Shown: positions 13,526 through 57,220 of the stretch, piece after piece | Position numbering within the stretch: position 1 is the stretch's first letter | Layout of the letters: the number at the start of each line of letters is the position of its first letter | From: Candidatus Eiseniibacteriota bacterium | GTDB lineage: Bacteria; Eisenbacteria; RBG-16-71-46 | Reading direction: 5' to 3' | NCBI GenBank assembly: GCA_031364845.1 | Contig: JANLWX010000231.1 | Span: 23,531-87,530, forward strand | DNA length: 64,000 nt | The notes under the pieces: generated by a model | What the model was told of the DNA's origin: nothing | Seen by the model: only the letters and a program-made list of their open reading frames with translations | Databases searched by the model: none | Position numbers and translations under genes: made by a program

Positions 13526-13833
13526 AACGGCAGCTCGCCCTCGGGCGGCTCGTTCGCCTGCGAGTCGAATTCCATCGGCTGCGTGACCGGAGCCGAATCT
13601 TCGTCGCCCGATTCGATCAGCCGCTCGATGCGCTTCTCGGCTTCGTCGAGCTGATGCGTGAGGCGCTTCGACAGCTTCATGCCTTCTTCATAGCGCTCGA
13701 TCGACTCGTCCAGCGTCAGCTCTCCCCGCTCGAGTTCATCGACGATCGTGCGCAGTCGCTCGAGCGCGGCCTCGAAGCTGAGATTGGGGCCGCCGGTCGT
13801 CGCGTCCGGTACTGCGGGCTTCCTAGCGGGCAT
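13522..13833 (-). CDS. xseB: exodeoxyribonuclease VII small subunit
   Basis: Track ORF 103 aa containing FEAALERLRTIVDELERGELTLDESIERYEEGMKLSKRL, a typical XseB sequence. Confidence 0.85.
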   Translation of the reverse strand: MPARKPAVPDATTGGPNLSFEAALERLRTIVDELERGELTLDESIERYEEGMKLSKRLTHQLDEAEKRIERLIESGDEDSAPVTQPMEFDSQANEPPEGELPF

Positions 13834-15193
13834 CAGGTCCTCCGGATCGCACCGTCTCGATGCGGGCGTCGGCTTCTCCGCGCGCGAACTCGATCGTCAC
13901 GCGCTCACCCACGGTCAGCGTCTCGACGGTGCGCAGCACACTACCGTCGGCGCCCCGCGCCAGGCAATAGCCGCGCTCGAGCACGAGGCGCGGGGACAGC
14001 GCGCGCAGCTGGTCCACGCACGACGTCACCTGGCGACGGCGGTCGTGCAGTGCCCGGACCAGCGCCGGTGCCAGGGCGGCTTCGAGCTCGCGGGGTTCGT
14101 CGCTGAGCGCGGCCAGCGTGCGCGGCCACTCGCGCAGCGCGTAGCTCGCGGCGAGATGCTCGATCGACTGGCGGACGCTCCCCAGGCGGGAGCGCAGTGC
14201 GAAGCGCATGCGCAGCGTCGACTCGCCGACCGTCGTATGCCAGCCCTCGAACAGCTGCTGCAGGCGCTGGAAGCCGTATTTCTGCGTGAGGTGCATGAGC
14301 GCCTGGCGCCGCGATTCGAGCCGGCGTTCGAGCGCGCGACGGCTGCGCCACGTGAGGTGCCCGAGATCCTCGAGCAGTTTTACCCGCTCGCACACCACGA
14401 GCTCCGCGGCGTTGGACGGTGTGGCGGCCCGCACGTCGGCCGCGGCGTCGGCGAGCGTCCAGTCCACTTCGTGTCCGACCGCCGAGACGATCGGGATCGC
14501 GGAGCCCGCGATCGCACGCACCACGACTTCCTCGTTGAATGCCCACAGATCCTCGATCGAGCCGCCGCCGCGTCCGACAATCAGGACATCGACCGCCCCG
14601 TGGCGATTGAAACGCCGGATCGCATCGGCAATCTCGAGTGCGGCACCCGGTCCCTGCACGCGCACCGGCGCGAACACGACCGCGATGCCGGGCATGCGCC
14701 CGCGCAGCACCTTCACGATGTCGCGGATCGCGGCCCCGACCGGCGAAGTCACCACTCCGATCCGCCGCGGGTAGCGCGGCAGTGGACGCTTGCGCGCGGG
14801 ATCGAACAGGCCTTCGGCGGTGAGGCGCTGCTTCAGCTGTTCGAGCTGCAGCAGCAATGCTCCGAGGCCGGCCGGGCGCATCTGCTTGACGGAGAACTGG
14901 TAGTTGCCGCGCGGCTCGTAGACCGTGATGTCGCCGAACGCTTCGATCTCGAGGCCTTCCTTCGGCTCGAATCCGAGTCCGCTCGCGGTGCGCGACCACA
15001 TCACGCAGTCGAGTGCCGCGTCCTTGCCGTCCTTGAGCTTGAAGTAGAGATGCCCGCTGTCGGCGCGCTTGAAACCCGACAGCTCGCCCTTGACCCACAC
15101 GCCGGTGAATTGCTCGGCGAGCGCCTCCTTGATGGCGCGCGTCAGCTCGAGGACCGAAAGGACCCGGTCGTTCCCGGCCGGTGCGAGGCTCAT
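13823..15193 (-). CDS. xseA: exodeoxyribonuclease VII large subunit
   Basis: This is the 3' part of track ORF 13823..16708. I chose the internal ATG (MSLAPAGNDRVLSVLELTRAIKE...), which overlaps the ymdB-folD stop as ATGA. It has an OB-fold N-domain and the XseA catalytic region. Confidence 0.85.
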   Translation of the reverse strand: MSLAPAGNDRVLSVLELTRAIKEALAEQFTGVWVKGELSGFKRADSGHLYFKLKDGKDAALDCVMWSRTASGLGFEPKEGLEIEAFGDITVYEPRGNYQFSVKQMRPAGLGALLLQLEQLKQRLTAEGLFDPARKRPLPRYPRRIGVVTSPVGAAIRDIVKVLRGRMPGIAVVFAPVRVQGPGAALEIADAIRRFNRHGAVDVLIVGRGGGSIEDLWAFNEEVVVRAIAGSAIPIVSAVGHEVDWTLADAAADVRAATPSNAAELVVCERVKLLEDLGHLTWRSRRALERRLESRRQALMHLTQKYGFQRLQQLFEGWHTTVGESTLRMRFALRSRLGSVRQSIEHLAASYALREWPRTLAALSDEPRELEAALAPALVRALHDRRRQVTSCVDQLRALSPRLVLERGYCLARGADGSVLRTVETLTVGERVTIEFARGEADARIETVRSGGPDAR

Positions 15194-16887
15194 CGCGCGG
15201 CTTCTTCTCCGATGGTCTGGCGCGCGGCGGCGAGCACGAGGTTCGACACCACCATCGCCACCGTCATCGGACCCACACCACCCGGAACCGGCGTCAGCGC
15301 ACCCGCAACCTCGATCACCGACTCCGCGTGCACATCGCCGCAGAGTCGTGAGCCGCTGCGCTTTTCGGGAGCGGCGACGCGATGCACACCGACGTCGACG
15401 ACCGTCGCACCCGGCTTCACCCACTCGGCGGTGACCGCTTCGGGCCGGCCCATCGCGACCACCAGCAGATCCGCCTCGCGCGCGAGACGCTGGAGCGCGG
15501 GCCCGCTCGCGCTGTGACCGATCGTCACCGTCGCATCGACGCCTTTGGTCGAGAGCAGCGTCGCGACCGGGCGCCCGACGATCGAGCTGCGCCCCAACAC
15601 GACCGCGTGGGTGCCCGCGAGCGGCACCTGATGAAAGCGCAGCAGCTCGAGAATGCCGCGCGGTGTGCACGGCACGAGTGACGGAAGTCCGAGGCTCAGG
15701 CGTCCGGCGTTCACCGGATGGAAGCCATCGACATCCTTGCCCGGGGGGATTGCATCCAGCACTTCGTCCGCGCGCGCGGGGGCGGCCAGCGGAAGCTGGA
15801 CGAGGATGCCGTGAACGTCCGGGTCGTCGCCGAGCTGGCGCACTTTCGCGACCACGGTACGCGTGTCGGTGCCGGCGGGCAGCGAGATGCGGCGGACCTC
15901 GATGCCCGCTTCCTTGCATGCGTCGTCCTTCTTGCGCATGTAGATCTGGGAGGCCGGATCGTCCCCGACCGAGACCAGCGCCAGGCACGGTTCGACGCCC
16001 CCCGCGCGCAGGCGCGACACTTCGATCTGCGCCGCGTAGCGCACGCTCGCGGCCGGATCGTCGCCGCGCAGCAGCCGCGCCTGCCCGGCGGGCGTCGCGT
16101 CGGGCGTGTAGCGCATCTGGATGCGCTCGATCGAGTGCGCCTTGCCGGTCGCGGGATCGACGCGGACCACGGCGCCGTTCAGGCGCAGGTCGCCATCCGA
16201 CGGCGACAGCCGCTCGTTCATGAGCGTCGTGAAACGTCGCAGTGCCGCGACGCGGTCCATGCCGATCACCGAATCGAAGCCGCCCGTCATGCCGGCGTCG
16301 GTCAGGTACGCGGTGCCTTTGGGCAGCACGCGCTCGTCCGCTGTCTGCACGTGCGTATGCGTGCCGAACAGCGCGCTCACGCGGCCGTCGAGGTTCCAGC
16401 CCATGGCGACCTTCTCGGCGGTGGTCTCGGCGTGGAAATCGAGCACGATGATCTTCGCCTGATCGCGCAGCGCTTCGAGCGTGCGCTCGATCGAGGCGAA
16501 CGGCGAATCGATCTCCTTCATGAACACGCGGCCGAGCATGCTGATCACGGCGACCGGCGTGCCGTCCTGCGCGCGGAACACGCCAAAGCCCTGCCCCGGC
16601 GTCGTGGCCGGCATGTTGGCGGGCCGCACCAGTCGCGGTTCCTCGGCGAGATAACCGTGGCTCTCCTTCTTGTCCCACAGATGATTGCCGCCGGTGAGCA
16701 CATCGCATCCGGCCGCGAACAGTTCCGCCGCGCCGTCACGCGTGACACCGAACCCGCCCGCCGAGTTCTCGGCGTTGCAGATCACGAGACCGATTTCGTG
16801 GCGCCGGCGCAGCTCGGGCAGCAGCGCTTTCACCACCTTGCGGCCGGGTGAACCCACGACATCGGCGATGAACAGGATGTTGAGCAA
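15190..16887 (-). CDS. in-frame fusion of YmdB-like metallophosphoesterase (2',3'-cNMP phosphodiesterase family, TIGR00282) and bifunctional methylene-THF dehydrogenase/methenyl-THF cyclohydrolase FolD
   Basis: Track ORF 15190..17553 is continuous. The upstream part is Arg-rich junk. The likely start is the TTG at 16885-16887, preceded by AGGAGtccgg, giving MLNILFIADVVGSPG, which closely matches the B. subtilis YmdB N-terminus. The YmdB-like domain is ~265 aa and ends at ...GKAHSIERIQ. It continues without a stop into MRYTPDATPAGQARLLRGDDPAAS...LVSVGDDPASQIYMRKK...VDGFHPVNAGRL...PCTPRGI...TPVPGGVGPMTVA, which is FolD. Confidence 0.75.
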   Translation of the reverse strand: MLNILFIADVVGSPGRKVVKALLPELRRRHEIGLVICNAENSAGGFGVTRDGAAELFAAGCDVLTGGNHLWDKKESHGYLAEEPRLVRPANMPATTPGQGFGVFRAQDGTPVAVISMLGRVFMKEIDSPFASIERTLEALRDQAKIIVLDFHAETTAEKVAMGWNLDGRVSALFGTHTHVQTADERVLPKGTAYLTDAGMTGGFDSVIGMDRVAALRRFTTLMNERLSPSDGDLRLNGAVVRVDPATGKAHSIERIQMRYTPDATPAGQARLLRGDDPAASVRYAAQIEVSRLRAGGVEPCLALVSVGDDPASQIYMRKKDDACKEAGIEVRRISLPAGTDTRTVVAKVRQLGDDPDVHGILVQLPLAAPARADEVLDAIPPGKDVDGFHPVNAGRLSLGLPSLVPCTPRGILELLRFHQVPLAGTHAVVLGRSSIVGRPVATLLSTKGVDATVTIGHSASGPALQRLAREADLLVVAMGRPEAVTAEWVKPGATVVDVGVHRVAAPEKRSGSRLCGDVHAESVIEVAGALTPVPGGVGPMTVAMVVSNLVLAAARQTIGEEAAR

Positions 16888-23862: not shown

Positions 23863-24501
23863 TTACTCCTTCGAACCGGCTTCCATGCGGATGCCGGAGG
23901 ACGCGGACGAACTCTTCTCGCCAGCACCCGGGTGGTCGTTGTCTTCCGTCATTTCACGGTGCTCCTTGCTGCCGGGCTTCGGGGGCCTCGGCATCAGCAC
24001 CGTCGTCAGCGAGCGCCCTTCGGAACGCGGCGGGGATTCCACCGTCGAAACGTCGGTCAACTCGGCGATGATCTTCTGGATCAACGTGAAGCCGATGTCC
24101 ATGTGCGCCATTTCACGGCCGCGGAACGTGATCGTGAACTTGACCTTGTCGCGTCCGTTCAGGAAGTCGCGCGCATGGTTCATCTTGAAGTCGTAGTCGT
24201 GGTCGTCGATCTTCGGGCGCATCTTCACTTCTTTGAGCTGCATCTGGTGCTGCTTCTTCTTGGCCTTGCGCGCGCGGCGGTTCTGTTCGTACTTGAACTT
24301 CCCGTAGTCCATGATCCGGCACACCGGCGGCCGCGCCGTCGGGGAAACTTCCACGAGATCGAGGCCGCGGGACTGCGCGAGCTGCAACGCCTCGCGCGTG
24401 GCGAGCACTCCGACCTGTGACCCATCGTCCCCGATCACTCGGACCTGGGGGACGCGGATGCGTTCGTTCACCCGAACTTCAGGCTGCTTGGCTACTGAAA
24501 T
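23863..24501 (-). CDS. infC: translation initiation factor IF-3 (AUU start codon)
   Basis: Track ORF 23863..24561. The IF3 homology (KQPEVRVNERIRVPQVRVIGDDGSQVGV...) begins at an ATT codon at 24499-24501, preceded by a perfect SD GGAGGTG at 6-nt spacing. This is the classical autoregulatory AUU start. There is no ATG at the homology start. The C-terminus carries an unusual ~40-aa acidic/Ser-rich tail. Confidence 0.8.
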   Translation of the reverse strand: MSVAKQPEVRVNERIRVPQVRVIGDDGSQVGVLATREALQLAQSRGLDLVEVSPTARPPVCRIMDYGKFKYEQNRRARKAKKKQHQMQLKEVKMRPKIDDHDYDFKMNHARDFLNGRDKVKFTITFRGREMAHMDIGFTLIQKIIAELTDVSTVESPPRSEGRSLTTVLMPRPPKPGSKEHREMTEDNDHPGAGEKSSSASSGIRMEAGSKE

Positions 24502-24560
24502 GGTTGCCACCTCCGCGAGAGCGGTTCGCTGCAGGGCCCGGAGCGCATGCGACGCATGCA

Positions 24561-24606
24561 AAAAAACGCCGGGCAGGGTTCCAAGCAGAAACCCCGCCCG
24601 GCGTTG
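24561..24606 (-). terminator. Rho-independent terminator/attenuator between giant gene and infC
   Basis: The minus strand reads AACGCCGGGCGGGG-(13 nt loop)-CCCTGCCCGGCGTT followed by UUUUUUU. The stem is 14 bp and GC-rich with one G-U pair. It lies 60 nt upstream of the infC AUU. Confidence 0.65.
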
Positions 24607-24854: not shown

Positions 24855-27800
24855 CTACTGAACGACCACGAACCTCCCCGTGACGCGTTCCGTCCCCTGG
24901 CTCAATCGCGCGAAATACATTCCGGGCTTGAGCGATCGGGCGCCCGCGATCCGCACGTCGTGCGTGCCGGCCGACAGCCCTTCGAGTGCTTCGCGCACGA
25001 AGCGGCGTCCGCCGAGGTCGTAGATCTCGAACGTCGCCGCACCCGCGCGCGGCAGCGCGAGTGATACGAGCACGCCGCGCGATCCGGCATCCCACCGCAC
25101 TGCGGACATCGCGAGCGCGGTGTTGCCGGGGACCGAAACCGACGTCTCGCCCACGAACACCTCTCCCGACGCGAGCATGATGCCGAGCCGGTAGGCGTAC
25201 TGCGCGCCCGGAACCACGTCGTAGTCGTCGAACGTCAGACGATGCGACCCATCCGGCACCAGCCGCGCCACGTGCGTCCATTCGCGTGCACCCTCACGCC
25301 GGTAGACCGCGGCTTCCGGAACGTCGGCGGTCATCCACACCACGCGCACCCGTTCGGAGTTGGCCTCGGTGGTCACGACCGATGCCTGCACAGGAGTCGA
25401 GCTCACGCAGTTGGCAATGCCGCCCTGCCACGAGATGTAGTTGCGATTGATCGGCATCGTGAGCTGCGGGTCATAGTTGAGTTGGAAGGGCTGGAACAGC
25501 TGAATCTCGTTCAGCAGGAGGCACATGGGTTCCGAGCAACCGGCGCAACTGCCGCTGCCGGTGGTCTTGGAACGCAGGATATTTGCCTTGAACGCGTAGT
25601 ACTCGGTTTCGGGATCGACCGGCGCCGCACTTTCGATCGGAACCGCCGCCTGGATCCGGAACCGCGCACGGCTGGGCGAACCGAAACCGACATCGTAGGC
25701 ATAACCGCCTGCCGCCTGTCCGGCGAAGTAGTCGACGCACGTGAACGGCCCGGAAGTGAAGTCGAAACTGGTCGCGAGCCCGGTGGTCGAGCGGCATTGC
25801 TGGCTGCCATGCCGCCACCAGTCGGGCAAGGTGGCCGTATTGGACCGGATGTCGATCTGGGCGGACATGCCGGCGAACTCCGTGACGTTCGGCGGAGGAA
25901 TGAATGATGCGATCATCGCGAATGCGGAACCAGAGTTCGCATCGCAGGCGAACGTCATGTTCTCGGTGCCCGCGGTTCCGCAGTCGCTCCACGACAGGTT
26001 GATGCCGCCGTTCGTGATCATCAGGGGCCCCACACGGAACGTGCTGTCCGAGACCGCGGTCCCGCCGGGATTGGTGACGCTGATCGGACCGTTCGTGGCT
26101 CCGGTGGGAACGGTGGCGGTGATTCTCACATCGGAAGAAATACTGAACGGCGTCGGAAGTCCGTTGAACCGGACGGACGACGTGTACAGGAAGTTCTCCC
26201 CCGTGATGGTGATCGTGCTCCCCACCGGCGCCTGGCGAGGCGAGAAACTCGCGATGCGCGGCGCGACGATGAACGTGCCGGCCGACGTCATCGAACCGTT
26301 CGGTGTGCTGACTTCGATGAATCCCGTGCGCGCACCGGCCGGGACGGTGGCGTGAATCACCGAGTCCGATACGGTCGTGAACAGAGCCGGCCGCAAGTCG
26401 AAGGTGACGAGCGAAGTTGCGGTGAAATGCAGTCCGCGGATCGTGACCACGGTGCCGGGTGCTCCCGCGCCCGGCGTGAACGACTGAACGTCCGGCAGCG
26501 GACCCGGAACTCCCTGCCACGCGATCGTCTTGTGATCGAGTGCGGTCGTGATCACCGGGTCGTACTTGAACTCGGGCGTCTGGAACAACTGGATCTGCCG
26601 CAGCGTGAGGCTCACGGGAACGTTGCACCCCGAGCAACTGCCCGTACCCGTCGACTGCGTGCGGAGGAGATTCACCTTGAAGGCGTGGTACTCGACGGCC
26701 GGATCCAACGCGACGCGATGGGAGTTCATGAATCCGAACACTTCGATCCTGGCCATGTTCGCGCCGCCGAATCCGACCGTGTAGTCGAGGGTGCCCGTCA
26801 CCAGTTCCTGCCAGGGGTTCACGCAGGAGCCCGGGGCCAGCGAGAAGTCGAAGTTCGACGTGAGGTCGCCGGTGCCGCGGCAGAACGAGGAACCGTGCTT
26901 CCACCACTCGGGCAGCGCGGAGCCCGACGCGATCCGGATGTCCCCGGAGAGACCGATCATCTCGGTGACGCCCACCGGCGGTTTGAACGATGCGAACGCC
27001 GTGACCGTTCCCGTGTTCACGTTGCAGGCGAAGTTCTTCAAGTCGGCGCCCGCCGCGCCGCATGCATCCCACGACAGGTTGATGAATCCCGGCGGCAGCG
27101 GCCCGACCGTGAACGCGATGTCGGAGATGTCCTCACCCGCGGGATTGGCGACGCGCAGCGGACCGCTGGTGGTGCCCGCCGGCACCGGGGCCGTGAGCAT
27201 CGAGTCGTTGACGATGGTGAACGTGGCGTCGAGGCCGTTGAATTCGACGTCGTTGACGTTGATGAAGTTCACGCCGCGCACGGTGATGACGTGACCCACG
27301 GGTGCCTGCCGCGGCGCGAACGACGTGATGATCGGAGCGACGCTGAACAGATCGTCGCTGACGTCGCTGCCCTGAATCGTCGCGACCGTGATCCGGCCGG
27401 TGCGCGCGCCGGGCGGTACCGAAGTCGCGATGGTCGTGTCCGAGGTCACGGAGAACGACGCACTCAACGTGTGAAAGAGCACGGAATTCGTTCCGGTGAA
27501 GTGCGCGCCGCGAATCGTGACCGGCTGTCCCGGGGCACCCGCCATGGGTGAGAACGAGTCGATCACCGGCGGCGGACCCGGCTCCGCCTGCCACGCGATC
27601 GCGTTGCGAAGCTGCGGTGTCGTGATCACGGGATCGAAGCCGAGTTCCGGGGACTGCATCAGCTGTAGCTGCTCGAGCGTGAGCGAAACGGGCACGTTGC
27701 ATCCGGAGCACGCACCCGCTCCGGTCGTCGCGGTACGAAGCACCTGCACCTTGAACGCGTTGTACTCGCGATCGGACTGGGTCGCGGTGCGATTCGACGG

Positions 27801-30800
27801 ATCCATCGCACACACGACCTGCAGCAGTGCCGTGTTGGGGCCGTCGTAGGCGACTGAATACGAGGTGTTGCCTACCGCCTGGCCCTGCCACGGATCGAAG
27901 CATGGTGAGCCTGCGAAGCTGAAGGTTGCCGGCAGAGCGGAGCTGGCGCGGCATTGCGCGAAGCCGTGTTTCCACCAGTCGGGAAGCGCCTGGGACGATG
28001 CGATGCGCACGCGGGCGGACATTCCGATCAGCTCCTGCACGCCGGGAGGCGGCACGAACGAGCCGACGAACGTGAACCCGGTTCCCGTGTTCGCGTCGCA
28101 CGCGAACGTCTTGAGCGCCGTACCCGCCGTACCGCACAGATCCCACGACAGGTTGAGCAAGCCCGCGGGCAGCGGTCCGACATGGAACAGACTGTCTGAG
28201 GTGTCGGAGCCGCCGATATTGGTCACGGTGATCGGTCCGTCGGTCGCTCCCGCCGGCACCGGCGCCTGCAGGGTCGAGTCGTTCTGCACGGTGAACGTGG
28301 CGGTGGTGCCGTTGAAGCTCACGGCCGTGGTCCGCGTGAAGTTGAAGCCGCGGATCGAAAGCGGATAGCCCACCGGGGCCGATTGCGGAAGGAAGTTGCG
28401 CAGTTCGGGCGCCGCGATGAACATGCTGTCGCTGGTGTCCGAACCCTGGATCGTCGCGAGGTGAATCGGTCCGGTGCGCGCACCGGCCGGCACGACCGCC
28501 TCAACCTTGGTGTCCGAGGTCACCGTGAACGACGAGGCCGCAAGCGTGTGAAACCTCACCGACGAAGCGCCGGTGAATCCGCTGCCCGAGATCGTGACGA
28601 CCTGAGCAGGACCGCCGCCCGGCGGTGTGAACGCCGAAATCTGCGGAACCGGTCCCGGTGCTGCCTGCCACAAGGCGACCACTCGAGCGGCCGGTGTGGT
28701 GAGGATCGGATCGTATCCGAGTTCGGCACTCTGGAAGAGCTGGATCTGATTGAGTGTGAGGCCTACGGGGAGGCTGCAGCCCGCGCATGCGGCGGCGCCG
28801 GTCGTGTTCGCGCGCTGGATCTGCGCTTTGAACGCGTAGTACTCCGTCGAAGGACTGGCCGCTCCCGCCGAGGCCGGCAACGAACACGAGATCTGGAGTC
28901 GCGCGCTGTTCGCGCCATAGAACCCGACGCCGTACGAGGAACTCCCGGTCGCGAGCCCCTGCAGGATGTCGGTGCACGACGTGGGTCCGCTGCGGAAGTC
29001 GAAGTTCGTCGTGAGCCCTGTGGTTCCGCGGCACTGGCCGGGGCCGTGTTTCCACCAGTCGGGCAGATCACCGGTCGAAGCGATTCGGATCTCGGCCGCG
29101 AGGCCCGTGAGTTCGAGGACATCGGGCGGAGGAATGAACGATCCGACCAGCGTGAACGCGCTGCCCGTATTGAGGTCGCAGGCGAACGCCTGGGTCGCGG
29201 TCCCCGCGAGTCCGCAGTCGTTCCACGACAGATTGATGGTTCCCGATACGATCGGACCGACATGGAACGGGTCGTCGGAAGTGTCGGTGCCACCGGGGTT
29301 GGTGATGGCGATCGGACCGTCGGTTGCGCCAACGGGGACGATGGCATAGATCGTCGTGTCCGAATGCGTCGTGTACGACGAAGCGAGTCCGTTGAACCGG
29401 ACCGACGTCGAGCGCGTGAAGTTGGTGCCGCGGATCACGACCGTGTGCCCCACCGGGGCGGTGTGCGGCAGGAAGAAACGGATGTCGGGCTTCACCACGA
29501 ACAGACTCTCGGATGCCGCGGTTCCGCGGGATGTGGTCACCGCGATCGAGCCGGTGCGGGCGGCGGCGGGGACGGTCGTCGAGATCCGTGTGTCGGAGTC
29601 GACGGTGAAGGAAGCGGACACGTCGCGGAACCGAACCGCGGTGGCTCCTGTGAAGTACTGGCCCTGGATCGTCACCGGGATGCCGGGGGCCCCGGCGAGC
29701 GGCGTGAACGAATCGACCCGCGGCAACGGCCCGGGCTCCGCCTGCCAGAACGCGCTGTTGCGATGGAAAGGAATCGAGATCACCGGGTTGTAACCCATCG
29801 CGGCCGGCTGAGTGAGCTGGATCGTGTGGAGCGTGACGCGCACCGGCGTCTCGCAGCCATCACACTTCCCGGAGGAGTAGCTCTTGTTGCGCGTGATGTT
29901 GACCTTGAACGCGTAGTACGCCGTGTTCTGATCGACCGGAGTGTTCAGGGTCGACGAACTCGAAATTCTGATGCGGGCCGTGTTCGCGCCATAGAAGCCC
30001 ACATCGTAGCTGAAGCCCCCGCCGTTGATCTGGTCGAGCCACAGGTTGTCGCAGGAATAGGGTCCGCCGAACGAGCTGAAGTTGACGTTGAGCCCGGCCG
30101 AGCTGCGACACTGACCGGATCCATGCTTCCACCAGTCGGGCAAGGTGGTGGCATACACGCCGAGATCGGAGATCGCCCCGTTGAGCTGGCTCACGCCGGG
30201 CGGAGGCACGAACGACCCGATCAGCGTGAACGGCGTTCCCGTGTTTCGATCGCACGCGAACGTCTTGATCGCCGTTCCCGCGAGTCCGCAATCGTCCCAC
30301 GACAGATCCAGCGCGCCCGCCGCGGGGCCCACGCGGAACACGGAGTCGGATGGAGTCGTGCCGCCGGGATTCGTGATCGAGATCGGCCCGGTGGTGGCCG
30401 CGCCCGGCACGACCGCGAGGAGCAGCGAATCGCTGTCGATGGAGAAGCTCGCCGTCGTCCCGTTGAAACGCACGGCCGAGACGTTTGCGAAGTTGCGGCC
30501 GGTGACGAGGATCGAGGCACCCGCGGACGCCTGCTTCGGCAGGAAGTGGCGGATCGCAGGGGCCACCGTGAACGAGAGGCTGGTGCCGCTTCCGAACGCC
30601 GTATCGAGCGTGATGGGCCCGGTCTCTCCCCCGACGGGAACGGTCGTCGTGACCTGAGCGTTGGAGACGATGTTGAACGCCGCGGCCACGGTCCCGAAGC
30701 GTACGGACGTGGTGCCGAGCAGGTTCGAGCCGTTGATCGTCACGACCACGCCCGGCGCTCCGGCTGCAGGCGAGATCGAACCGATCACCGGCGGTCCCGG

Positions 30801-31499
30801 TGTGACCGCCTGCCAGTACACGGTGTTGCGCGTGAGCGGTGTCGTGATGATCGGATCGTTCGCACTCGATAGCGGTTGGAACAGTTGAATGCTCTGAAGC
30901 TTGAGGCTCACCGGCGCGCTGCACCCGGCACAACTGCCGGCACCGGTCGTGTTCGAACTCAGCACGCGCAGCTTGAACGCGTAGTATTCCTGCGCCGCGG
31001 AAACGGGCGCGGCTTCATTGGAAGGAATCGCGCACTGGACCAGGACCTTGGCGGTATTGGGGCCGTACGCCGAGATCGTGTAGAGAAGCCCCCCCACTTC
31101 GCTGCCCGGCCAGAAGTCCGTGCATGCAACCGGCGAGAACGCGAAGTCGGGTGTGAGCGCGCTCACGCCGCGGCACTGTCCGCTCCCGTGCTTCCACCAG
31201 TCCGGAAGGCTGGTCGAGGCCACCCGCACCTCGGCCGACATGCCGAGCAGGTTGTTGATGCCCGCGGGCGGAACGAAAGACGCCACGGCGTTGAACGCCG
31301 GCCCGGCGTTCGTGTTGCAGGCGAACGTCTTCAACTGCGAGCCTGCAGCGCCGCAATCGTCCCACGAGAAGTTGATTCCGGCGGCATCGGCGGAGGGAAC
31401 TCGAGAACTCATGAGCAACGCGGCGCAGCAGATGAACGCGAATGTCCGGCGTAGCAACTCGGCGAACGCGACGGGACGAGACGAGCGAGGGCGGATCAT
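24855..31499 (-). CDS. giant secreted repeat protein (2214 aa): signal peptide, 5 x [novel Cys-rich domain + 2 IPT/TIG], 1 x Cys-rich domain, FN3-like domain, Por/T9SS-type C-terminal sorting domain
   Basis: Track ORF 2214 aa. The N-terminus MIRPRSSRPVAFAELLRRTFAFICCAALLMSSRVPSADA is a signal peptide. Six copies of a ~195-aa module begin (I/L)(N/D)LSW(D/N/S)(D/L/A)CG, with 8 conserved Cys. IPT/TIG pairs follow (P.I.SFSP..GAPG..VTI.G..FTG...V.F ... VP.GA.TGPI.VTNPGG). The C-terminus FEIYDLGGRRFVREALEGLSAGTHDVRIAG...GMYFARLSQGTERVTGRFVVVQ matches the Por secretion tail / FlgD-Ig-like CTD consensus. Confidence 0.85.
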   Translation of the reverse strand: MIRPRSSRPVAFAELLRRTFAFICCAALLMSSRVPSADAAGINFSWDDCGAAGSQLKTFACNTNAGPAFNAVASFVPPAGINNLLGMSAEVRVASTSLPDWWKHGSGQCRGVSALTPDFAFSPVACTDFWPGSEVGGLLYTISAYGPNTAKVLVQCAIPSNEAAPVSAAQEYYAFKLRVLSSNTTGAGSCAGCSAPVSLKLQSIQLFQPLSSANDPIITTPLTRNTVYWQAVTPGPPVIGSISPAAGAPGVVVTINGSNLLGTTSVRFGTVAAAFNIVSNAQVTTTVPVGGETGPITLDTAFGSGTSLSFTVAPAIRHFLPKQASAGASILVTGRNFANVSAVRFNGTTASFSIDSDSLLLAVVPGAATTGPISITNPGGTTPSDSVFRVGPAAGALDLSWDDCGLAGTAIKTFACDRNTGTPFTLIGSFVPPPGVSQLNGAISDLGVYATTLPDWWKHGSGQCRSSAGLNVNFSSFGGPYSCDNLWLDQINGGGFSYDVGFYGANTARIRISSSSTLNTPVDQNTAYYAFKVNITRNKSYSSGKCDGCETPVRVTLHTIQLTQPAAMGYNPVISIPFHRNSAFWQAEPGPLPRVDSFTPLAGAPGIPVTIQGQYFTGATAVRFRDVSASFTVDSDTRISTTVPAAARTGSIAVTTSRGTAASESLFVVKPDIRFFLPHTAPVGHTVVIRGTNFTRSTSVRFNGLASSYTTHSDTTIYAIVPVGATDGPIAITNPGGTDTSDDPFHVGPIVSGTINLSWNDCGLAGTATQAFACDLNTGSAFTLVGSFIPPPDVLELTGLAAEIRIASTGDLPDWWKHGPGQCRGTTGLTTNFDFRSGPTSCTDILQGLATGSSSYGVGFYGANSARLQISCSLPASAGAASPSTEYYAFKAQIQRANTTGAAACAGCSLPVGLTLNQIQLFQSAELGYDPILTTPAARVVALWQAAPGPVPQISAFTPPGGGPAQVVTISGSGFTGASSVRFHTLAASSFTVTSDTKVEAVVPAGARTGPIHLATIQGSDTSDSMFIAAPELRNFLPQSAPVGYPLSIRGFNFTRTTAVSFNGTTATFTVQNDSTLQAPVPAGATDGPITVTNIGGSDTSDSLFHVGPLPAGLLNLSWDLCGTAGTALKTFACDANTGTGFTFVGSFVPPPGVQELIGMSARVRIASSQALPDWWKHGFAQCRASSALPATFSFAGSPCFDPWQGQAVGNTSYSVAYDGPNTALLQVVCAMDPSNRTATQSDREYNAFKVQVLRTATTGAGACSGCNVPVSLTLEQLQLMQSPELGFDPVITTPQLRNAIAWQAEPGPPPVIDSFSPMAGAPGQPVTIRGAHFTGTNSVLFHTLSASFSVTSDTTIATSVPPGARTGRITVATIQGSDVSDDLFSVAPIITSFAPRQAPVGHVITVRGVNFINVNDVEFNGLDATFTIVNDSMLTAPVPAGTTSGPLRVANPAGEDISDIAFTVGPLPPGFINLSWDACGAAGADLKNFACNVNTGTVTAFASFKPPVGVTEMIGLSGDIRIASGSALPEWWKHGSSFCRGTGDLTSNFDFSLAPGSCVNPWQELVTGTLDYTVGFGGANMARIEVFGFMNSHRVALDPAVEYHAFKVNLLRTQSTGTGSCSGCNVPVSLTLRQIQLFQTPEFKYDPVITTALDHKTIAWQGVPGPLPDVQSFTPGAGAPGTVVTIRGLHFTATSLVTFDLRPALFTTVSDSVIHATVPAGARTGFIEVSTPNGSMTSAGTFIVAPRIASFSPRQAPVGSTITITGENFLYTSSVRFNGLPTPFSISSDVRITATVPTGATNGPISVTNPGGTAVSDSTFRVGPLMITNGGINLSWSDCGTAGTENMTFACDANSGSAFAMIASFIPPPNVTEFAGMSAQIDIRSNTATLPDWWRHGSQQCRSTTGLATSFDFTSGPFTCVDYFAGQAAGGYAYDVGFGSPSRARFRIQAAVPIESAAPVDPETEYYAFKANILRSKTTGSGSCAGCSEPMCLLLNEIQLFQPFQLNYDPQLTMPINRNYISWQGGIANCVSSTPVQASVVTTEANSERVRVVWMTADVPEAAVYRREGAREWTHVARLVPDGSHRLTFDDYDVVPGAQYAYRLGIMLASGEVFVGETSVSVPGNTALAMSAVRWDAGSRGVLVSLALPRAGAATFEIYDLGGRRFVREALEGLSAGTHDVRIAGARSLKPGMYFARLSQGTERVTGRFVVVQ
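25150..31390 (-). repeat. six divergent tandem ~1.07-kb coding repeats inside the giant gene
   Basis: The protein-level periodicity of ~355 aa is visible as recurring nucleotide blocks encoding LSWDDCG, LPDWWKHG.GQCR, EYYAFK and IQL.Q. Confidence 0.7.
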
Positions 31500-31755: not shown

Positions 31756-33534
31756 CTAATGCGTGCGCGCCCGCGTCTCCTCGGTGACACGCTGCACGAA
31801 CGCTTCGCGGCTCATCGCCTCGAGCTGCCCCTGACCCTTGCGGCGGGGCGCGACCGTGCCGGCTTCCGCTTCGCGCGGGCCGACGACCAGCATGTAGGGA
31901 ATCTTGGCAAGTTCGGCATCGCGAATCTTCGCACCCATCTTCTCGTCACGCAGGTCGATCTCGGCGCGAATGCCCGCGTCCTTCAGCATCTGCGTGGTGC
32001 CGTTCGCGTAATCGAGCGCGCGTTCGTTCGCCGGGATCACCATGACCTGCACCGGCGCGATCCACACCGGGAATTCGCCGCCGGTGTGCTCGATGTAGAT
32101 GCCCATGAACCGCTCCAGCGATCCATAGAGCGCGCGGTGCAGCATGATGCACTCGTGATCCTGGCCGTCGGGTCCGGTGTACATGACACCGAATCGCTTC
32201 GGCAGGTTCAGATCGACCTGAATGGTCGGACACTGCCACTGGCGGCCGAGCGCGTCCTTGAGCTTGACGTCGATCTTGGGCGCGTAGAACGCGCCGCCGC
32301 CCTCGTCGACCTCGTACGGCAGGTTACGGCTCTCGAGCGCCTCACGCAGCGCGTTCGTCGCGAAGTCCCACTCCTCGTCGGTGCCGAGATACTTGTCGGC
32401 CGGACGGGTCGCGAGATAGCACACGTATTCGTAGCCGAACGTCTTGAGCAGGAAGTCCATCAGATCGAGGATTCCGGCCACTTCGTCGGCGAGTTGTTCG
32501 CGCGTGCAGAAGATGTGCGAGTCGTCCTGGGTGAAGCCGCGCACGCGTTCCATGCCGTGCAGCACGCCGCTGCGTTCGTAGCGATAGACGGTCCCGAGTT
32601 CCGCCATGCGGATCGGCAGCTCGCGATAGCTGTGCTTGCGCGTGTTGTAGATCATGATGTGCCCGGGACAGTTCATCGGCTTCATGCGGTAGGGCTGGCC
32701 GTCGATGTCCATCGCGGCGTACATCATTTCGGCGTAGTTCTGAAGATGGCCCGAGATCGCGTACAGCTTCTCGCTCGCGACATGCGGCGTGTACACGAAC
32801 TGATAGCCGCGCTTCAGGTGCTCTTCCTTCCAGAACTGCTCCATCAGATGGCGCACCATGCTGCCGTTCTGATGCCAGTGGATCAGCCCCGAGCCCACCT
32901 CCTCGTGCACCGAGAACAGATCGAGCTCCCGGCCGAGCCGGCGATGGTCGCGCTTGAGCGACTCCTCGATTCGCTTCAAGTACTCGTCCAGCTCCTGCTG
33001 GTTCGCGAACGCGGTGCCGTAGATGCGCTGGAGCATCTCGTGGCGTTCGTTGCCGAGCCAGTAGGCGCCCGCGACGTGGGTGAGCTTGAACGCCTTGAGA
33101 TCGCCGGTCGCCGCGACGTGCGGACCGCGGCACAAGTCGAGGAACGGTCCGTTCACGTAATAGGTGATCTTGGAACTCTCGGGAATCTGCGACAGGAAGT
33201 GGAGCTTGTACTTCTCGCCCGCCTTCTCGAAGCGCGCCTTCGCTTCGTCGCGATCGGTCTCGCGGAATTCGAACGGCTGATTGGCGGCGACGATCTCGCG
33301 CATCTTCGCTTCGATCCGCTCCAGATCTTCGTTCGAGAACGGCGTGTCCTTCGCGAAATCATAGTAGAAGCCGTTCTCGATCGGCGGCCCGCCGGCGACC
33401 TTCACGTCGGGGAACAGCTCGATGACGGCGGTGGCGAGCACGTGCGCCGCCGAGTGGCGCAGACGGTAGAGCGCTTCGCCTCCCGGATACTGCGCGATGT
33501 CGGGACGATCTTCGGACGCAGTCGCCATGGACAT
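31756..33534 (-). CDS. thrS: threonine--tRNA ligase
   Basis: Track ORF 592 aa with the KPMNCPGH motif, class II core and C-terminal anticodon-binding domain. A strong AAGGAG RBS precedes the ATG. The N-terminal TGS domain appears short or absent. Confidence 0.95.
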   Translation of the reverse strand: MSMATASEDRPDIAQYPGGEALYRLRHSAAHVLATAVIELFPDVKVAGGPPIENGFYYDFAKDTPFSNEDLERIEAKMREIVAANQPFEFRETDRDEAKARFEKAGEKYKLHFLSQIPESSKITYYVNGPFLDLCRGPHVAATGDLKAFKLTHVAGAYWLGNERHEMLQRIYGTAFANQQELDEYLKRIEESLKRDHRRLGRELDLFSVHEEVGSGLIHWHQNGSMVRHLMEQFWKEEHLKRGYQFVYTPHVASEKLYAISGHLQNYAEMMYAAMDIDGQPYRMKPMNCPGHIMIYNTRKHSYRELPIRMAELGTVYRYERSGVLHGMERVRGFTQDDSHIFCTREQLADEVAGILDLMDFLLKTFGYEYVCYLATRPADKYLGTDEEWDFATNALREALESRNLPYEVDEGGGAFYAPKIDVKLKDALGRQWQCPTIQVDLNLPKRFGVMYTGPDGQDHECIMLHRALYGSLERFMGIYIEHTGGEFPVWIAPVQVMVIPANERALDYANGTTQMLKDAGIRAEIDLRDEKMGAKIRDAELAKIPYMLVVGPREAEAGTVAPRRKGQGQLEAMSREAFVQRVTEETRARTH

Positions 33535-34099: not shown

Positions 34100-34930
34100 T
34101 TGAGTCGAGTCGTTCGCAGTTCAGTAGTGGCGGTTCTGGCAGCTTGCGGCGCGTTATCGATCCTCGCATCCACTGTGATGGCCGATGCCTTCGCGCGCTC
34201 GAACCGATCGAATCGCAAGGTTCACGTGTCGGCGATCGCTCACGATGGAGGGATTCCCTGCTCCCAGGACGCGAGCCAGCAAGGGGGAACGCTGACGCGT
34301 GTGTGCTTCAGTGCCGGCGGGCTCGGCGGCTCCAACGTCGGCTACGCAAGCGCGAGCGCCGGGCCGGGCTTCGCGCATTCGGTGAACTACACCAAGGGCA
34401 CGGCGAGAGCCGGACTCGGCGTTGCTGCGGCGGGCGACACCGCGGTCAGCGATTCGTTCCTCGTGACCTACTCGAACACGGCCGTCAACCAGACGACGAT
34501 CGTCATCAACGGACGCCTGTTGGTCGATGGCACCAACATGCTGAACTCGACCAAGGGGTTACTGCGGGTGCTCGTCTATCGCGATTCGGCTGCCGCCGAT
34601 TCCGACCCCGCCCACGTCGGTGCGGGTGCGGGAACTCTGTTCAGCGGAAAACTGGAGGTCACGAAGGCGTCGCATGTGGCTTCCGGCGGATTCAGCAGCG
34701 GAAACTTTGCGGCGATCGCCGGAGCGAACCGCTATCAGGTGTCGGCCAGCAATCTCTCGAAGGTCGTTTCCGGTGTGGTCGACACCTCGAAGGTCGTCGT
34801 CATGGTCTTCAACGATTCGGTGTCGGACGTTCCCATGAGCTCGCCGCTCGTCGTGTTGCTCGGCGCGGGGCTGCTGGGCGGTAGTGCGCTATGGGCGATG
34901 CGCCGGCGCAAGTCGGCCGGTCTCGCCTGA
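34100..34930 (+). CDS. secreted protein with PEP-CTERM-like sorting tail
   Basis: Track ORF 276 aa with a signal peptide ([28 protein letters not shown]), a Gly/Ser/Ala-rich beta-rich body, and the C-terminus ...[35 protein letters not shown]. That tail is a degenerate (V)P(E)P motif, a TM helix and an RRRK cluster. Confidence 0.55.
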
Positions 34931-48721: not shown

Positions 48722-48943
48722 CGATTCCTCCGGCAGAGTGGGAAGCATTGCGCCCCATCATGGTAGCCGGGGGTTCCCGGACGTGTCCGCGCGTGGGCTG
48801 AAGAATCAGGTGCGCCGCGATTTTACTTCATTCGCGGGCCGCGGGTGGAACCCAAATCGCGCCCCGGCGGCTGGCCGATCGTTCGCCATCGGGAGTACAT
48901 TCCGGGCGTTGCTCCCCCGCCGGATTCCTTTCGAGGAGGCACC

Positions 48944-55926: not shown

Positions 55927-57087
55927 ATGGATCGTCCGCCTCTGCTCGCGTTCTCGAACGTCCGCTGGGAGTCGTCCTTCCAGCGTCCTCATCAGGTGAT
56001 GACGCGCATGGGCAACCGCCGCAACGTCGTGTTCATCGAAGAGCCGTTGGTCGGCGGACCCTCGTCATGGATGGAATCACTGCGCGTCGCCCCAGGAGTG
56101 CGTGTGTGCCGCCCCCATCTCGCAGCGCACGAGCCGGCGCCCGGCCACCAGCAGTTCCACGACCTCGACACGATGCTGCGGTCCTTCCTGGATCGCGAGA
56201 ACATCACCGACCATGCGGCGTGGCTCTACACTCCGTCCGCAGTCAAGCTTGCGCGCGGACTCGAGCCGCGCGCGATCATCTATGATTGCACCGACAGCGT
56301 GGGCGCACTCGACGACCTTCCCGCGGGCGACGAACGCGAGTTGCTCGCATGCGCCGACGCTGTATTGACGAGCGGTCCGAGCATCTTCCGCGCGCGCACC
56401 GACAGTCATCCGTTCGTGCGTTGCTTTCCCAACAGCGTCGATGTCGCACAGTTCGCCGCGGCACGTGAAGGTCCCGAGCCCGCCGATCAGAACGCCCTTC
56501 CCCGTCCGCGGATCGGTTATCACGGGCCGGTGGACGCGCGGATCGACTTCGCGATTCTGGACCAGATGGCGATCTCCCATCCCGAATGGGAGATCGTGCT
56601 CGCTGGGCCGGCAGTCGGCATCGACCCCTCTGACATTCCGCAGCACGCAAACCTTCATCACTTCGATCACGTCGGTCATGCCGAGCTGCCGCGGTACATG
56701 TCGGGGTGGGATCTGTGCATTCTGCCGCTCGTGAGCAACGCATCGACGCGGTTCTTCAATCCGACGCAAGTGCTCGAAGGCCTTGCGGCCGATCGATCGG
56801 TCGTCTGCACGCCGATTCCCGATGTCGTCGAACTCCACCCGGACATCGTCTACTTCGGCGCAGAAGCCGGCGGCTTCGTCGCAGCTTGCGAAGACGCGCT
56901 GGGCGCATCGGTTGCCGATCGCGAAGCGCGCCGGGCGCGAGCCGTGCGCCAGCTCAAGCGCAGTTCGTGGGACGAGACCGTGCGTCGCATGGACGAGATC
57001 CTTCACTATCTCGGGGACTTTGGACGTGCGCGCGAAAGCATGCTGCAGACGCGGGCACCATGGACCTACGAAGCCCGCGTATCGTGA
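55927..57087 (+). CDS. glycosyltransferase (GT-B fold, family 1/4-like)
   Basis: Track ORF 386 aa with two-domain Rossmann-like composition and a C-terminal EWEIVLAGP region. The family assignment is weak. Confidence 0.5.
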   Translation: MDRPPLLAFSNVRWESSFQRPHQVMTRMGNRRNVVFIEEPLVGGPSSWMESLRVAPGVRVCRPHLAAHEPAPGHQQFHDLDTMLRSFLDRENITDHAAWLYTPSAVKLARGLEPRAIIYDCTDSVGALDDLPAGDERELLACADAVLTSGPSIFRARTDSHPFVRCFPNSVDVAQFAAAREGPEPADQNALPRPRIGYHGPVDARIDFAILDQMAISHPEWEIVLAGPAVGIDPSDIPQHANLHHFDHVGHAELPRYMSGWDLCILPLVSNASTRFFNPTQVLEGLAADRSVVCTPIPDVVELHPDIVYFGAEAGGFVAACEDALGASVADREARRARAVRQLKRSSWDETVRRMDEILHYLGDFGRARESMLQTRAPWTYEARVS

Positions 57088-57220
57088 GGGTTGCGCGTGC
57101 GCGCGTGCCGCGAGGCGCACGAGGCCTGGGCGCCAGGGGATCGCGCACGCGGCGCCGCGCTGCCCTGGTGTTTGGCCACAGTGCCTGGGGCCACACCGTT
57201 CGCCCATATTCGTACGCTTC

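What the first reader, a model, noticed from the sequence alone, without database searches (positions are those of the whole stretch)
30797..31382. Unrecognised ~195-aa Cys-rich extracellular domain present in six copies
Each module begins (I/L)xLSW(D/N)(D/L/A)CG.AGT..K.FACD.NTG..F....SF.PP.GV.EL.G. It continues with LPDWWKHG.GQCR, a P..C(T/D)D element, (E)YYAFK..I.R..TTG.G.CAGC..PV.LTL..IQL.Q, and ends ...WQA.PGP.P. The eight Cys residues are strictly conserved, suggesting four disulfides. I cannot match this to any named domain family. The listed coordinates cover copy 1; the other copies recur every ~1065 nt downstream on the minus strand.
Basis: seen in the sequence. Interest (0 to 1): 0.75.

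Follow-up and report, generated by a model that had tools for sequence, protein, structure and literature searches.

The report
Unnamed cohesin-like surface module, six copies
A 2214-residue secreted protein, probably from a Candidatus Eisenbacteria genome, carries six copies of a ~197-residue disulfide-containing domain that matches no named family by sequence, folds like a cohesin, and most likely acts as a repeated binding module on the cell surface.

Summary
The repeat is real. One minus-strand gene (24855-31499, 2214 aa) encodes a signal peptide, five [module + two IPT/TIG] units, a sixth module, an unassigned ~108-aa stretch and a type IX secretion (T9SS)-type C-terminal domain. The copies are 42-55% identical and recur every 1065-1080 nt.

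Six cysteines are invariant, not eight. A seventh is present in three copies. Copy 6 has two more.

No Pfam, NCBIfam or PDB sequence match covers the module. It defines a large unnamed family: 1952 cluster representatives at 50% identity. Where the organism is known, it is almost always a Candidatus Eisenbacteria genome, with dozens of copies per genome.

Most relatives are ~243-aa stand-alone secreted proteins ending in a conserved (S/T)WGxVKSLYR tail. Nearly every complete longer relative ends in a T9SS-type C-terminal domain instead.

Best reading: a new sequence family with a known fold, used as a non-catalytic binding module displayed six times on a surface protein. The ligand is unknown. 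Interest is moderate.

The parts
24855..31499 (-). Whole gene, 2214 aa: signal peptide, then [module + TIG + TIG] x5, module 6, an unassigned region and a C-terminal sorting domain
   Evidence: Longest ORF in the region, GC3 0.84; domain hits
31383..31499 (-). N-terminal Sec-type signal peptide (aa 1-39; Arg-rich start, hydrophobic core TFAFICCAALLM, ...SADA|AG)
   Evidence: Read from the translation. Inspection only; no signal-peptide predictor was available
30792..31382 (-). Cys-containing module, copy 1 (aa 40-236); this is the stretch the finding lists
   Evidence: AF2 model pLDDT 95.3
30318..30791 (-). IPT/TIG pair 1 (aa 237-394)
   Evidence: PF01833 226 bits in 10 stretches; NF058597 'choice-of-anchor Z repeat' in 10 stretches
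29721..30317 (-). Module copy 2 (aa 395-593)
29244..29720 (-). IPT/TIG pair 2 (aa 594-752)
28644..29243 (-). Module copy 3 (aa 753-952)
28164..28643 (-). IPT/TIG pair 3 (aa 953-1112)
27567..28163 (-). Module copy 4 (aa 1113-1311)
27090..27566 (-). IPT/TIG pair 4 (aa 1312-1470)
26493..27089 (-). Module copy 5 (aa 1471-1669)
26010..26492 (-). IPT/TIG pair 5 (aa 1670-1830)
   Evidence: best TIG stretch aa 1747-1822
25404..26009 (-). Module copy 6 (aa 1831-2032). It is of the 'stand-alone type': it keeps the extra Cys pair C1993/C2031 and is 64-66% identical to stand-alone paralogs
25080..25403 (-). Unassigned ~108-aa region between module 6 and the C-terminal domain (aa 2033-2140)
   Evidence: No Pfam hit at E<=1
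24855..25079 (-). T9SS type A / FlgD_ig-like C-terminal sorting domain (aa 2141-2214) plus stop codon
   Evidence: TIGR04183 23.0 bits, exactly at its cutoff of 23, aa 2146-2212. PF18962 only 16.5 bits, below its cutoff. Nearly all complete longer homologues have the same kind of ending, and several of those scanned give FlgD_ig or Por_Secre_tail hits, some above cutoff

Best explanation
The module is a non-catalytic extracellular binding domain. It belongs to a new sequence family, found almost only in Candidatus Eisenbacteria, with a cohesin-like nine-stranded beta-sandwich core. About 70 extra residues form loops that hold the six invariant cysteines.

Proposed mechanism:
1. The protein is exported by Sec. 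The signal peptide is read from the sequence.
2. The six invariant Cys are oxidised in the periplasm to up to three disulfides (inferred).
3. The C-terminal domain routes the protein through a T9SS-like pathway and leaves it attached to the outer surface (inferred from the C-terminal domain match).
4. The five IPT/TIG pairs act as spacers that hold six modules along a fibre (inferred from the architecture).
5. Each module binds a ligand through its conserved loop residues: WW, H, R, D, E and Q (inferred).

The result would be a hexavalent adhesin or scaffold. The ligand, glycan or protein, is not known.
For: Shown:
- Six diverged but clearly homologous copies sit in one ORF that has a signal peptide, 10 TIG stretches and a T9SS-type tail.
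- The AF2 model has pLDDT 95.3 and pTM 0.91, and is all-beta with 9 strands.
- In relatives, the module often sits directly after the signal peptide of large proteins. It is combined only with binding or structural domains: TIG, FG-GAP, BNR, Laminin_G_3, Calx-beta, CBM_4_9 and CARDB. Most of these proteins carry a FlgD_ig/Por_Secre_tail hit or a similar ending.
- 23 of the 35 positions conserved at >=85% across 299 instances lie outside beta-strands. They include all six Cys and the WW motif.
- The family is large and expanded: 1952 representatives, and at least 25 and about 40 instances in two genomes.
- The super-repeat [module-TIG-TIG]n recurs with 3-11 modules in other Eisenbacteria loci.
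Against: - No ligand or binding site has been identified. The conserved loop residues could simply hold the long loops together.
- The cohesin similarity is fold-level only: 3-11% identity, Foldseek E no better than 5e-3, hhalign probability 0.06%.
- The C-terminal domain of this particular protein is marginal: 23.0 bits against a cutoff of 23, and Pfam below its cutoff. No T9SS machinery genes were looked for.
- Most family members are stand-alone proteins without an obvious anchor, which a simple adhesin model does not explain.
- The structure is a prediction, and the disulfide connectivity could not be read because no coordinates were available.
Confidence: 0.55

Rival explanations
1. Scaffoldin-like self-assembly. 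The module is the functional equivalent of a cohesin, and the conserved C-terminal tail of the stand-alone paralogs (...TPTxNxTWGxVKSLYR) is its docking peptide. Proteins anchored by a C-terminal sorting domain, such as this six-module one, would be surface scaffolds. Tail-bearing single-module proteins would dock on them and chain head-to-tail into a coat or filament.
For: - The fold is cohesin-like.
- There is a near-complete dichotomy among homologues. The ~243-aa forms end in the tail: 72 of 89 match the strict pattern and most of the rest carry near variants. Nearly every complete longer form ends in a T9SS-type C-terminal domain; the one exception is a 277-aa form with the tail.
- In about 530 kb of Eisenbacteria loci, all 58 tails found are on family members and none is on another kind of protein. 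That fits a self-recognition peptide better than a general sorting signal.
- In the model of a stand-alone protein the tail is a flexible extension with a short helix and is not packed onto its own domain (pLDDT 51-62).
- The paralogs occur in tandem arrays of 4-10, as in fibre operons.
- Copy 6 of the window protein is of the stand-alone type but carries the C-terminal sorting domain in place of the tail.
Against: - No module-tail interaction was tested; only single chains could be modelled.
- There is no sequence relationship to cohesin.
- No dockerin-type calcium-binding loops were found in the window or the loci (a crude regex).
- The loci examined are biased towards family members, so the tail may occur on other proteins elsewhere.
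- The tail could equally be an envelope-anchoring or sorting peptide.
Confidence: 0.15
2. Carbohydrate-binding module. The domain is a CBM-like lectin that tethers the cell, or soluble binding proteins, to a polysaccharide. The six copies would give avidity.
For: - Aromatic and polar residues are invariant or near-invariant: W62, W63, H65, Y101, Y133, W190, R71, D89, E132.
- The module co-occurs with CBM_4_9, Laminin_G_3 and BNR domains.
- One multi-module homologue (P0121) lies next to GH94, a glycoamylase and a sugar ABC transporter.
Against: - No sequence match to any CBM family.
- No family member scanned carries a clear glycoside hydrolase domain.
- The glycan-related neighbourhood was seen once only; other contexts are unrelated.
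Confidence: 0.2
3. Purely structural building block. The module is a surface-layer or stalk element that adds length and stability, with disulfides for robustness, and has no specific ligand.
For: - Copy number per genome is very high and the family is phylum-specific.
- The module is interleaved regularly with TIG domains.
- Many conserved residues could serve to stabilise the loops.
Against: - In relatives the module is frequently the N-terminal tip domain next to the signal peptide, which is the typical position of a functional head.
- Polar and aromatic loop residues are conserved strictly over a family whose members fall to ~35% identity. That is more than stalk domains usually show.
Confidence: 0.1

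Closest known systems
Cohesin modules (Pfam PF00963) of cellulosomal scaffoldins and of Clostridium perfringens glycoside hydrolases (PDB 2vo8, 1ohz, 5nrk)
   Different: There is no detectable sequence relationship: no Pfam hit in 95 members at E<=10 and hhalign probability 0.06%. The module has about 70 extra residues and six invariant Cys in its loops. No dockerin-type motif was found in the sequence available. Anchoring would be by a T9SS-type C-terminal domain in a diderm, not by SLH domains or sortase in Firmicutes. Conservation is concentrated in loops rather than on a flat sheet face.
Fibrillar adhesins of bacteria: a stalk of Ig-like repeats, a binding domain and a cell anchor (my own knowledge of the concept)
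   Same: Signal peptide, repeated Ig-like (IPT/TIG) stalk domains, a C-terminal surface anchor, and a non-stalk domain that is often at the N-terminal tip in relatives.
   Different: The candidate binding domain is not a known adhesive domain. In this protein it is interleaved six times with the stalk domains rather than placed once at the tip.
T9SS cargo proteins with a type A C-terminal domain (TIGR04183 / PF18962)
   Same: The protein has a C-terminal ~70-aa domain of this type, and nearly all complete longer family members end the same way.
   Different: The score in this protein is at or below the cutoff. The phylum is Eisenbacteria, not Bacteroidota. The secretion machinery was not examined.
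Family 3 carbohydrate-binding modules (CBM3)
   Different: Scores are lower than for cohesins. There is no sequence match, and no associated glycoside hydrolases were seen.

Membership tests
Cohesin (PF00963) | Significant sequence or profile match to the family | tested here: not met
   No Cohesin hit for the whole protein at E<=1, nor for any of 95 family members at E<=10. hhalign of family alignment A4 against a shallow type I cohesin alignment A5 gives probability 0.06%.
Cohesin (PF00963) | Nine-stranded jelly-roll beta-sandwich fold | tested here: met
Cohesin (PF00963) | Dockerin-bearing partner proteins in the same organism | tested here: inconclusive
   No dockerin-type calcium-loop motif was found in the six-frame translation of the window plus 44 loci. 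This was only a regex on partial genomes.
Cohesin (PF00963) | High-affinity binding of a dockerin | not testable with these tools
   Needs complex modelling or biochemistry.
T9SS type A cargo | C-terminal sorting domain matching TIGR04183 / PF18962 | tested here: inconclusive
   TIGR04183 23.0 bits against a cutoff of 23 (aa 2146-2212). PF18962 16.5 bits against a cutoff of 27. Homologues with the same kind of ending score higher: P0114 TIGR04183 33.1 bits; P0152 and P0168 FlgD_ig ~42 bits.
T9SS type A cargo | N-terminal Sec signal peptide | tested here: met
   Read from the sequence: basic n-region, hydrophobic core, ADA|AG site. By inspection only.
T9SS type A cargo | T9SS machinery genes (e.g. 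sprA/sov, porV, porU) in the genome | not tested
   None were recognised among the window ORFs scanned. The genome is not available.
IPT/TIG repeats (PF01833; NCBIfam NF058597 'choice-of-anchor Z repeat') | Profile match above the curated cutoff | tested here: met
   PF01833 226.4 bits in 10 stretches. NF058597 214.8 bits in 10 stretches. This applies to the spacers, not to the Cys module.
Carbohydrate-binding module (CBM3-like) | Sequence match to a CBM family, or demonstrated glycan binding | tested here: not met
Donor-strand / type V pilin-like subunits | Lipoprotein signal peptide, and a terminal strand that completes a neighbouring subunit's fold | tested here: not met
   The stand-alone proteins have ...ASA|AG-type signal peptides with no lipobox Cys. 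The domain folds completely without the tail. The tail is modelled as a low-confidence short helix, not a strand.

The most novel reading that the evidence does not exclude
The module and the (S/T)WGxVKSLYR tail of its stand-alone paralogs form a phylum-specific, disulfide-stabilised analogue of the cohesin-dockerin system. It would be used for self-assembly, not for enzyme recruitment. T9SS-anchored multi-module proteins such as this one would nucleate chains or a coat of dozens of tail-bearing single-module paralogs on the Eisenbacteria cell surface.
Probability: 0.12. Interest if true: 0.75.

Novelty: new variant of a known kind. Interest (0 to 1): 0.4.

Why it matters
If the reading is right, this is one of the most expanded extracellular protein families of an uncultured phylum, with dozens of copies per ~4-Mb genome. 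It is invisible to current domain databases, so these genes are all annotated as 'hypothetical' or simply as 'IPT/TIG'. Defining the family gives a handle on how Eisenbacteria build their cell surface and attach to substrates. It also adds a disulfide-stapled, diderm, T9SS-linked branch to the cohesin-like fold class. By itself it is a new domain of unknown function with a familiar fold, so it is useful but not surprising. The stand-alone paralogs and their conserved tail are the part most likely to hide a new mechanism.

Tried and rejected
- Pfam, NCBIfam and PDB sequence searches with the whole protein, with single paralogs and with two family profiles gave nothing on the module.
- Tandem Repeats Finder reports nothing. 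Its longest period is 500 nt and the copies have diverged.
- The afdb50 fold library was not available. Foldseek against viral structures gave only weak, unnamed hits.
- A search for cohesin homologues, meant to build a deep cohesin profile, returned only 10 near-identical CipA fragments. The hhalign test therefore used a shallow profile and is a weak negative.
- The exact protein is not on record in the contig collection, so the sample of origin is unknown.
- Literature searches (Eisenbacteria with cohesin, Eisenbacteria with type IX secretion, cohesin-like with T9SS) found no paper.
- A donor-strand or type V pilin model was considered because Peptidase_C25 genes lie next to paralog arrays. 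I rejected it: there is no lipobox, the fold is complete without the tail, and beta-strand 1 lies immediately before the conserved Cys10, so it is unlikely to be removable.
- An LPMO-like or copper-binding reading was considered because of weak YcnI and reeler-domain hits. I rejected it because the mature N-terminus is Ala/Gly, not His.
- The weak DUF2436 hits (5 of 95 members, best E 0.032) were not pursued, because the tool does not show which members or which region matched.
- I did not search with the tail peptide. The 120-row output would have been filled by family members.

Full report
**1. What is there**

The finding lies inside one long minus-strand ORF, 24855-31499. It encodes 2214 aa and has the third-position GC bias of the real genes in this 66% GC window.

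The translation starts with a Sec-type signal peptide. The [IL]x[FL]SW[DNS]xCG motif then occurs at residues 42, 397, 755, 1115, 1473 and 1833. The spacing is 355-360 aa, or 1065-1080 nt. The LPDWWKHG-type motif occurs six times in the window, always in this frame.

Aligned, the six ~197-200-residue copies share 47 invariant columns and are 42-55% identical to each other. Each scores 217-348 bits against a family HMM. The repeat is therefore real, and the stated coordinates (aa 40-234) are copy 1.

One detail is wrong. Only six cysteines are invariant (module positions 9, 21, 69, 86, 150, 153). A seventh is present in copies 1, 3 and 4. Copy 6 has two additional ones. This gives at most three conserved disulfides, not four.

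**2. Architecture of the protein**

- Pfam finds ten IPT/TIG stretches (226 bits). NCBIfam calls the same stretches 'choice-of-anchor Z' repeats.
- These are two TIG domains after each of modules 1-5.
- After module 6 comes an unassigned ~108-aa stretch. It is followed by a C-terminal ~70 aa that reach TIGR04183 (T9SS type A sorting domain) exactly at its cutoff of 23.0 bits. Pfam PF18962 is below its cutoff at 16.5 bits.
- The layout is SP-[M-TIG-TIG]x5-M-X-CTD, where SP is the signal peptide, M the module, X the unassigned stretch and CTD the C-terminal sorting domain.
- The gene sits between thrS and infC-rplT-pheS-pheT, a housekeeping context.
- The window also encodes TamA/TamB and a second protein with a FlgD_ig-type C-terminal domain. 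This fits a diderm bacterium.

**3. Is the module known?**

By sequence it is not.
- There is no Pfam or NCBIfam hit on the module for the whole protein, for stand-alone paralogs, or for any of 95 diverse members at E<=10.
- Two family profiles find nothing among PDB sequences.

**4. The family**

A word-indexed search found 471 relatives. An exhaustive HMMER scan found 1952 cluster representatives at 50% identity, 1397 of them at E<=1e-10.

A scan of one genome per species returned 37 loci. Most records are labelled Candidatus Eisenbacteria. The three that carry another phylum's label (Rokuibacteriota, Gemmatimonadales, Saccharimonadaceae) may be mis-binned, though I did not check this. Several records are labelled only as uncultured bacteria.

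Counting module instances in the fetched loci gives lower bounds of about 25 in the complete 4.16-Mb genome OY970342.1 and about 40 in one other metagenome-assembled genome. The [module-TIG-TIG]n super-repeats there hold up to 11 modules within 13.5 kb.

Two forms exist.
- **Stand-alone form.** Most members are ~243-aa proteins: a signal peptide, one module, then ...CPxSTPTxNx(S/T)WGxVKSLYR at the very C-terminus.
- **Long form.** Nearly every complete longer member ends in a T9SS/FlgD_ig-type C-terminal domain instead.

In the long members the module is often the first domain after the signal peptide. It is combined with TIG, FG-GAP, BNR, Laminin_G_3, Calx-beta, CBM_4_9, CARDB and MopE-type motifs. 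No clear catalytic domain was seen.

The stand-alone genes form tandem arrays of 4-10. In three contigs an array lies between mltG/yceG and SurA-like PPIases plus a Peptidase_C25 gene. Other copies are scattered singly.

Across 299 instances the six core Cys are 97-100% conserved. An extra Cys pair (HMM columns 184 and 223) is gained or lost together. It marks the stand-alone type and window copy 6. Copy 6 is 64-66% identical to stand-alone proteins but only 44-54% identical to its five sister copies.

**5. Fold**

An AlphaFold2 model of copy 1, built with 126 aligned sequences, is very confident: pLDDT 95.3 and pTM 0.91. It is all-beta with nine strands.

Foldseek also ranks cohesins first, but weakly: best E 5e-3, TM 0.39 normalised to the query and 0.52 to the target.

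hhalign of the family against a shallow type I cohesin alignment gives 0.06% probability. The module therefore has a cohesin-like core with about 70 extra residues, mostly in loops. It cannot be filed as a member of the cohesin family.

Two-thirds of the positions conserved at >=85% (23 of 35) lie outside strands. They include all six Cys, the WW pair, D9, N25, D89, E132, Q169 and Q191.

A model of a full stand-alone protein keeps the domain confident. It leaves the tail as a low-confidence (pLDDT 51-62) flexible extension with a short terminal helix, not packed on its own domain.

**6. How it most likely works**

I commit to a non-catalytic binding module (confidence 0.55). The steps and their basis are these.
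- Sec export: read from the sequence.
- Disulfide formation: inferred from the invariant Cys.
- Surface display through a T9SS-type C-terminal domain: inferred from a marginal match in this protein that is supported across the family.
- TIG pairs acting as spacers: inferred from the architecture.
- Ligand binding by the conserved, disulfide-stapled loops: inferred.

The ligand is unknown. The rivals are as follows.
- **CBM-like glycan binder (0.20).** It has the same fold class and conserved aromatic residues, but only one glycan-related gene neighbourhood.
- **Scaffoldin-like self-assembly (0.15).** The module would bind the tail of the stand-alone paralogs. Support comes from the tail-versus-CTD dichotomy, from the tail being found only on family members in ~530 kb of loci, and from its flexible helical nature. 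It remains untested.
- **Purely structural element (0.10).**

No dockerin-type calcium loops were found in the sequence at hand (a crude regex).

**7. Comparison and novelty**

In function it most resembles the cohesin modules of a surface scaffoldin, or the head domains of fibrillar adhesins. In membership it fails the sequence criterion for cohesin and for any CBM family. The TIG spacers are ordinary members of their family. The C-terminal sorting domain is a borderline member of its family.

I rate it a new variant of a known kind: a new, phylum-specific sequence family with a known fold and a familiar role. Interest is moderate (0.4). New domains of unknown function in candidate phyla are common. 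The size of the expansion and the unexplained conserved tail make it worth a defined family and a complex-modelling test.

Noticed in passing
Not in the window; homologues P0001-P0120, and loci L001, L002, L027, L028, L033, L034, L039, L042: The stand-alone ~243-aa paralogs end in a highly conserved tail, ...CPxSTPTxNx(S/T)WGx(V/I/L)KSLYR-COOH. In the loci fetched it occurs only on members of this family, and it takes the place of the T9SS-type C-terminal domain found on the longer members. Its role (docking peptide, anchor or sorting signal) is unexplained.
   Followed up: partly
window 25404-26009 (-), module copy 6: Copy 6 is closer to stand-alone paralogs of other genomes (64-66% identity) than to copies 1-5 of its own protein (44-54%). 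It keeps their extra Cys pair (C1993/C2031). This suggests the gene grew by adding [module-TIG-TIG] units in front of a stand-alone-type module fused to a C-terminal sorting domain.
   Followed up: partly
L001 7425-13317; L002 5744-12550; L042 4958-10732: A conserved tandem array of 4-6 stand-alone paralogs, plus an ~80-aa ORF, lies between mltG/yceG and two SurA-like PPIase genes. These are followed by a ~1400-aa Peptidase_C25 (gingipain-like) gene with a FlgD_ig tail. The arrangement recurs in three Eisenbacteria contigs.
   Followed up: partly
family alignment A4 (95 members): Five members give weak Pfam hits to DUF2436 (best E 0.032). From memory, this domain is associated with gingipain adhesin regions. 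The hits may be noise or a remote link.
   Followed up: no
window 23863-24561 (-) to 31756-33534 (-): The 6.6-kb surface-protein gene is inserted between thrS and the infC-rplT-pheS-pheT translation-gene cluster. This is an unusual neighbourhood for a large T9SS-type cargo gene.
   Followed up: no
window 45899-48748 (-): A second predicted surface protein (949 aa) has Sortilin-Vps10/BNR-type and Kre9_KNH Ig-like domains and a clear FlgD_ig C-terminal domain (54 bits).
   Followed up: no
window 56783-62718 (+): A TamA (Omp85/POTRA) and TamB gene pair. It indicates a diderm envelope with the translocation-and-assembly module.
   Followed up: no
window 13748-15517 (+) and 34100-34930 (+): Two sizeable ORFs (589 aa and 276 aa) with coding-like GC3 have no Pfam family at the thresholds used.
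   Followed up: no
L004 7770-14552 (+), genome OY970342.1: A similar gene with five or more modules in the complete Eisenbacteria genome has a C-terminus that does not read as a sorting domain, and module hits continue beyond it in other frames. This may be a frameshift in the assembly or a pseudogene.
   Followed up: no
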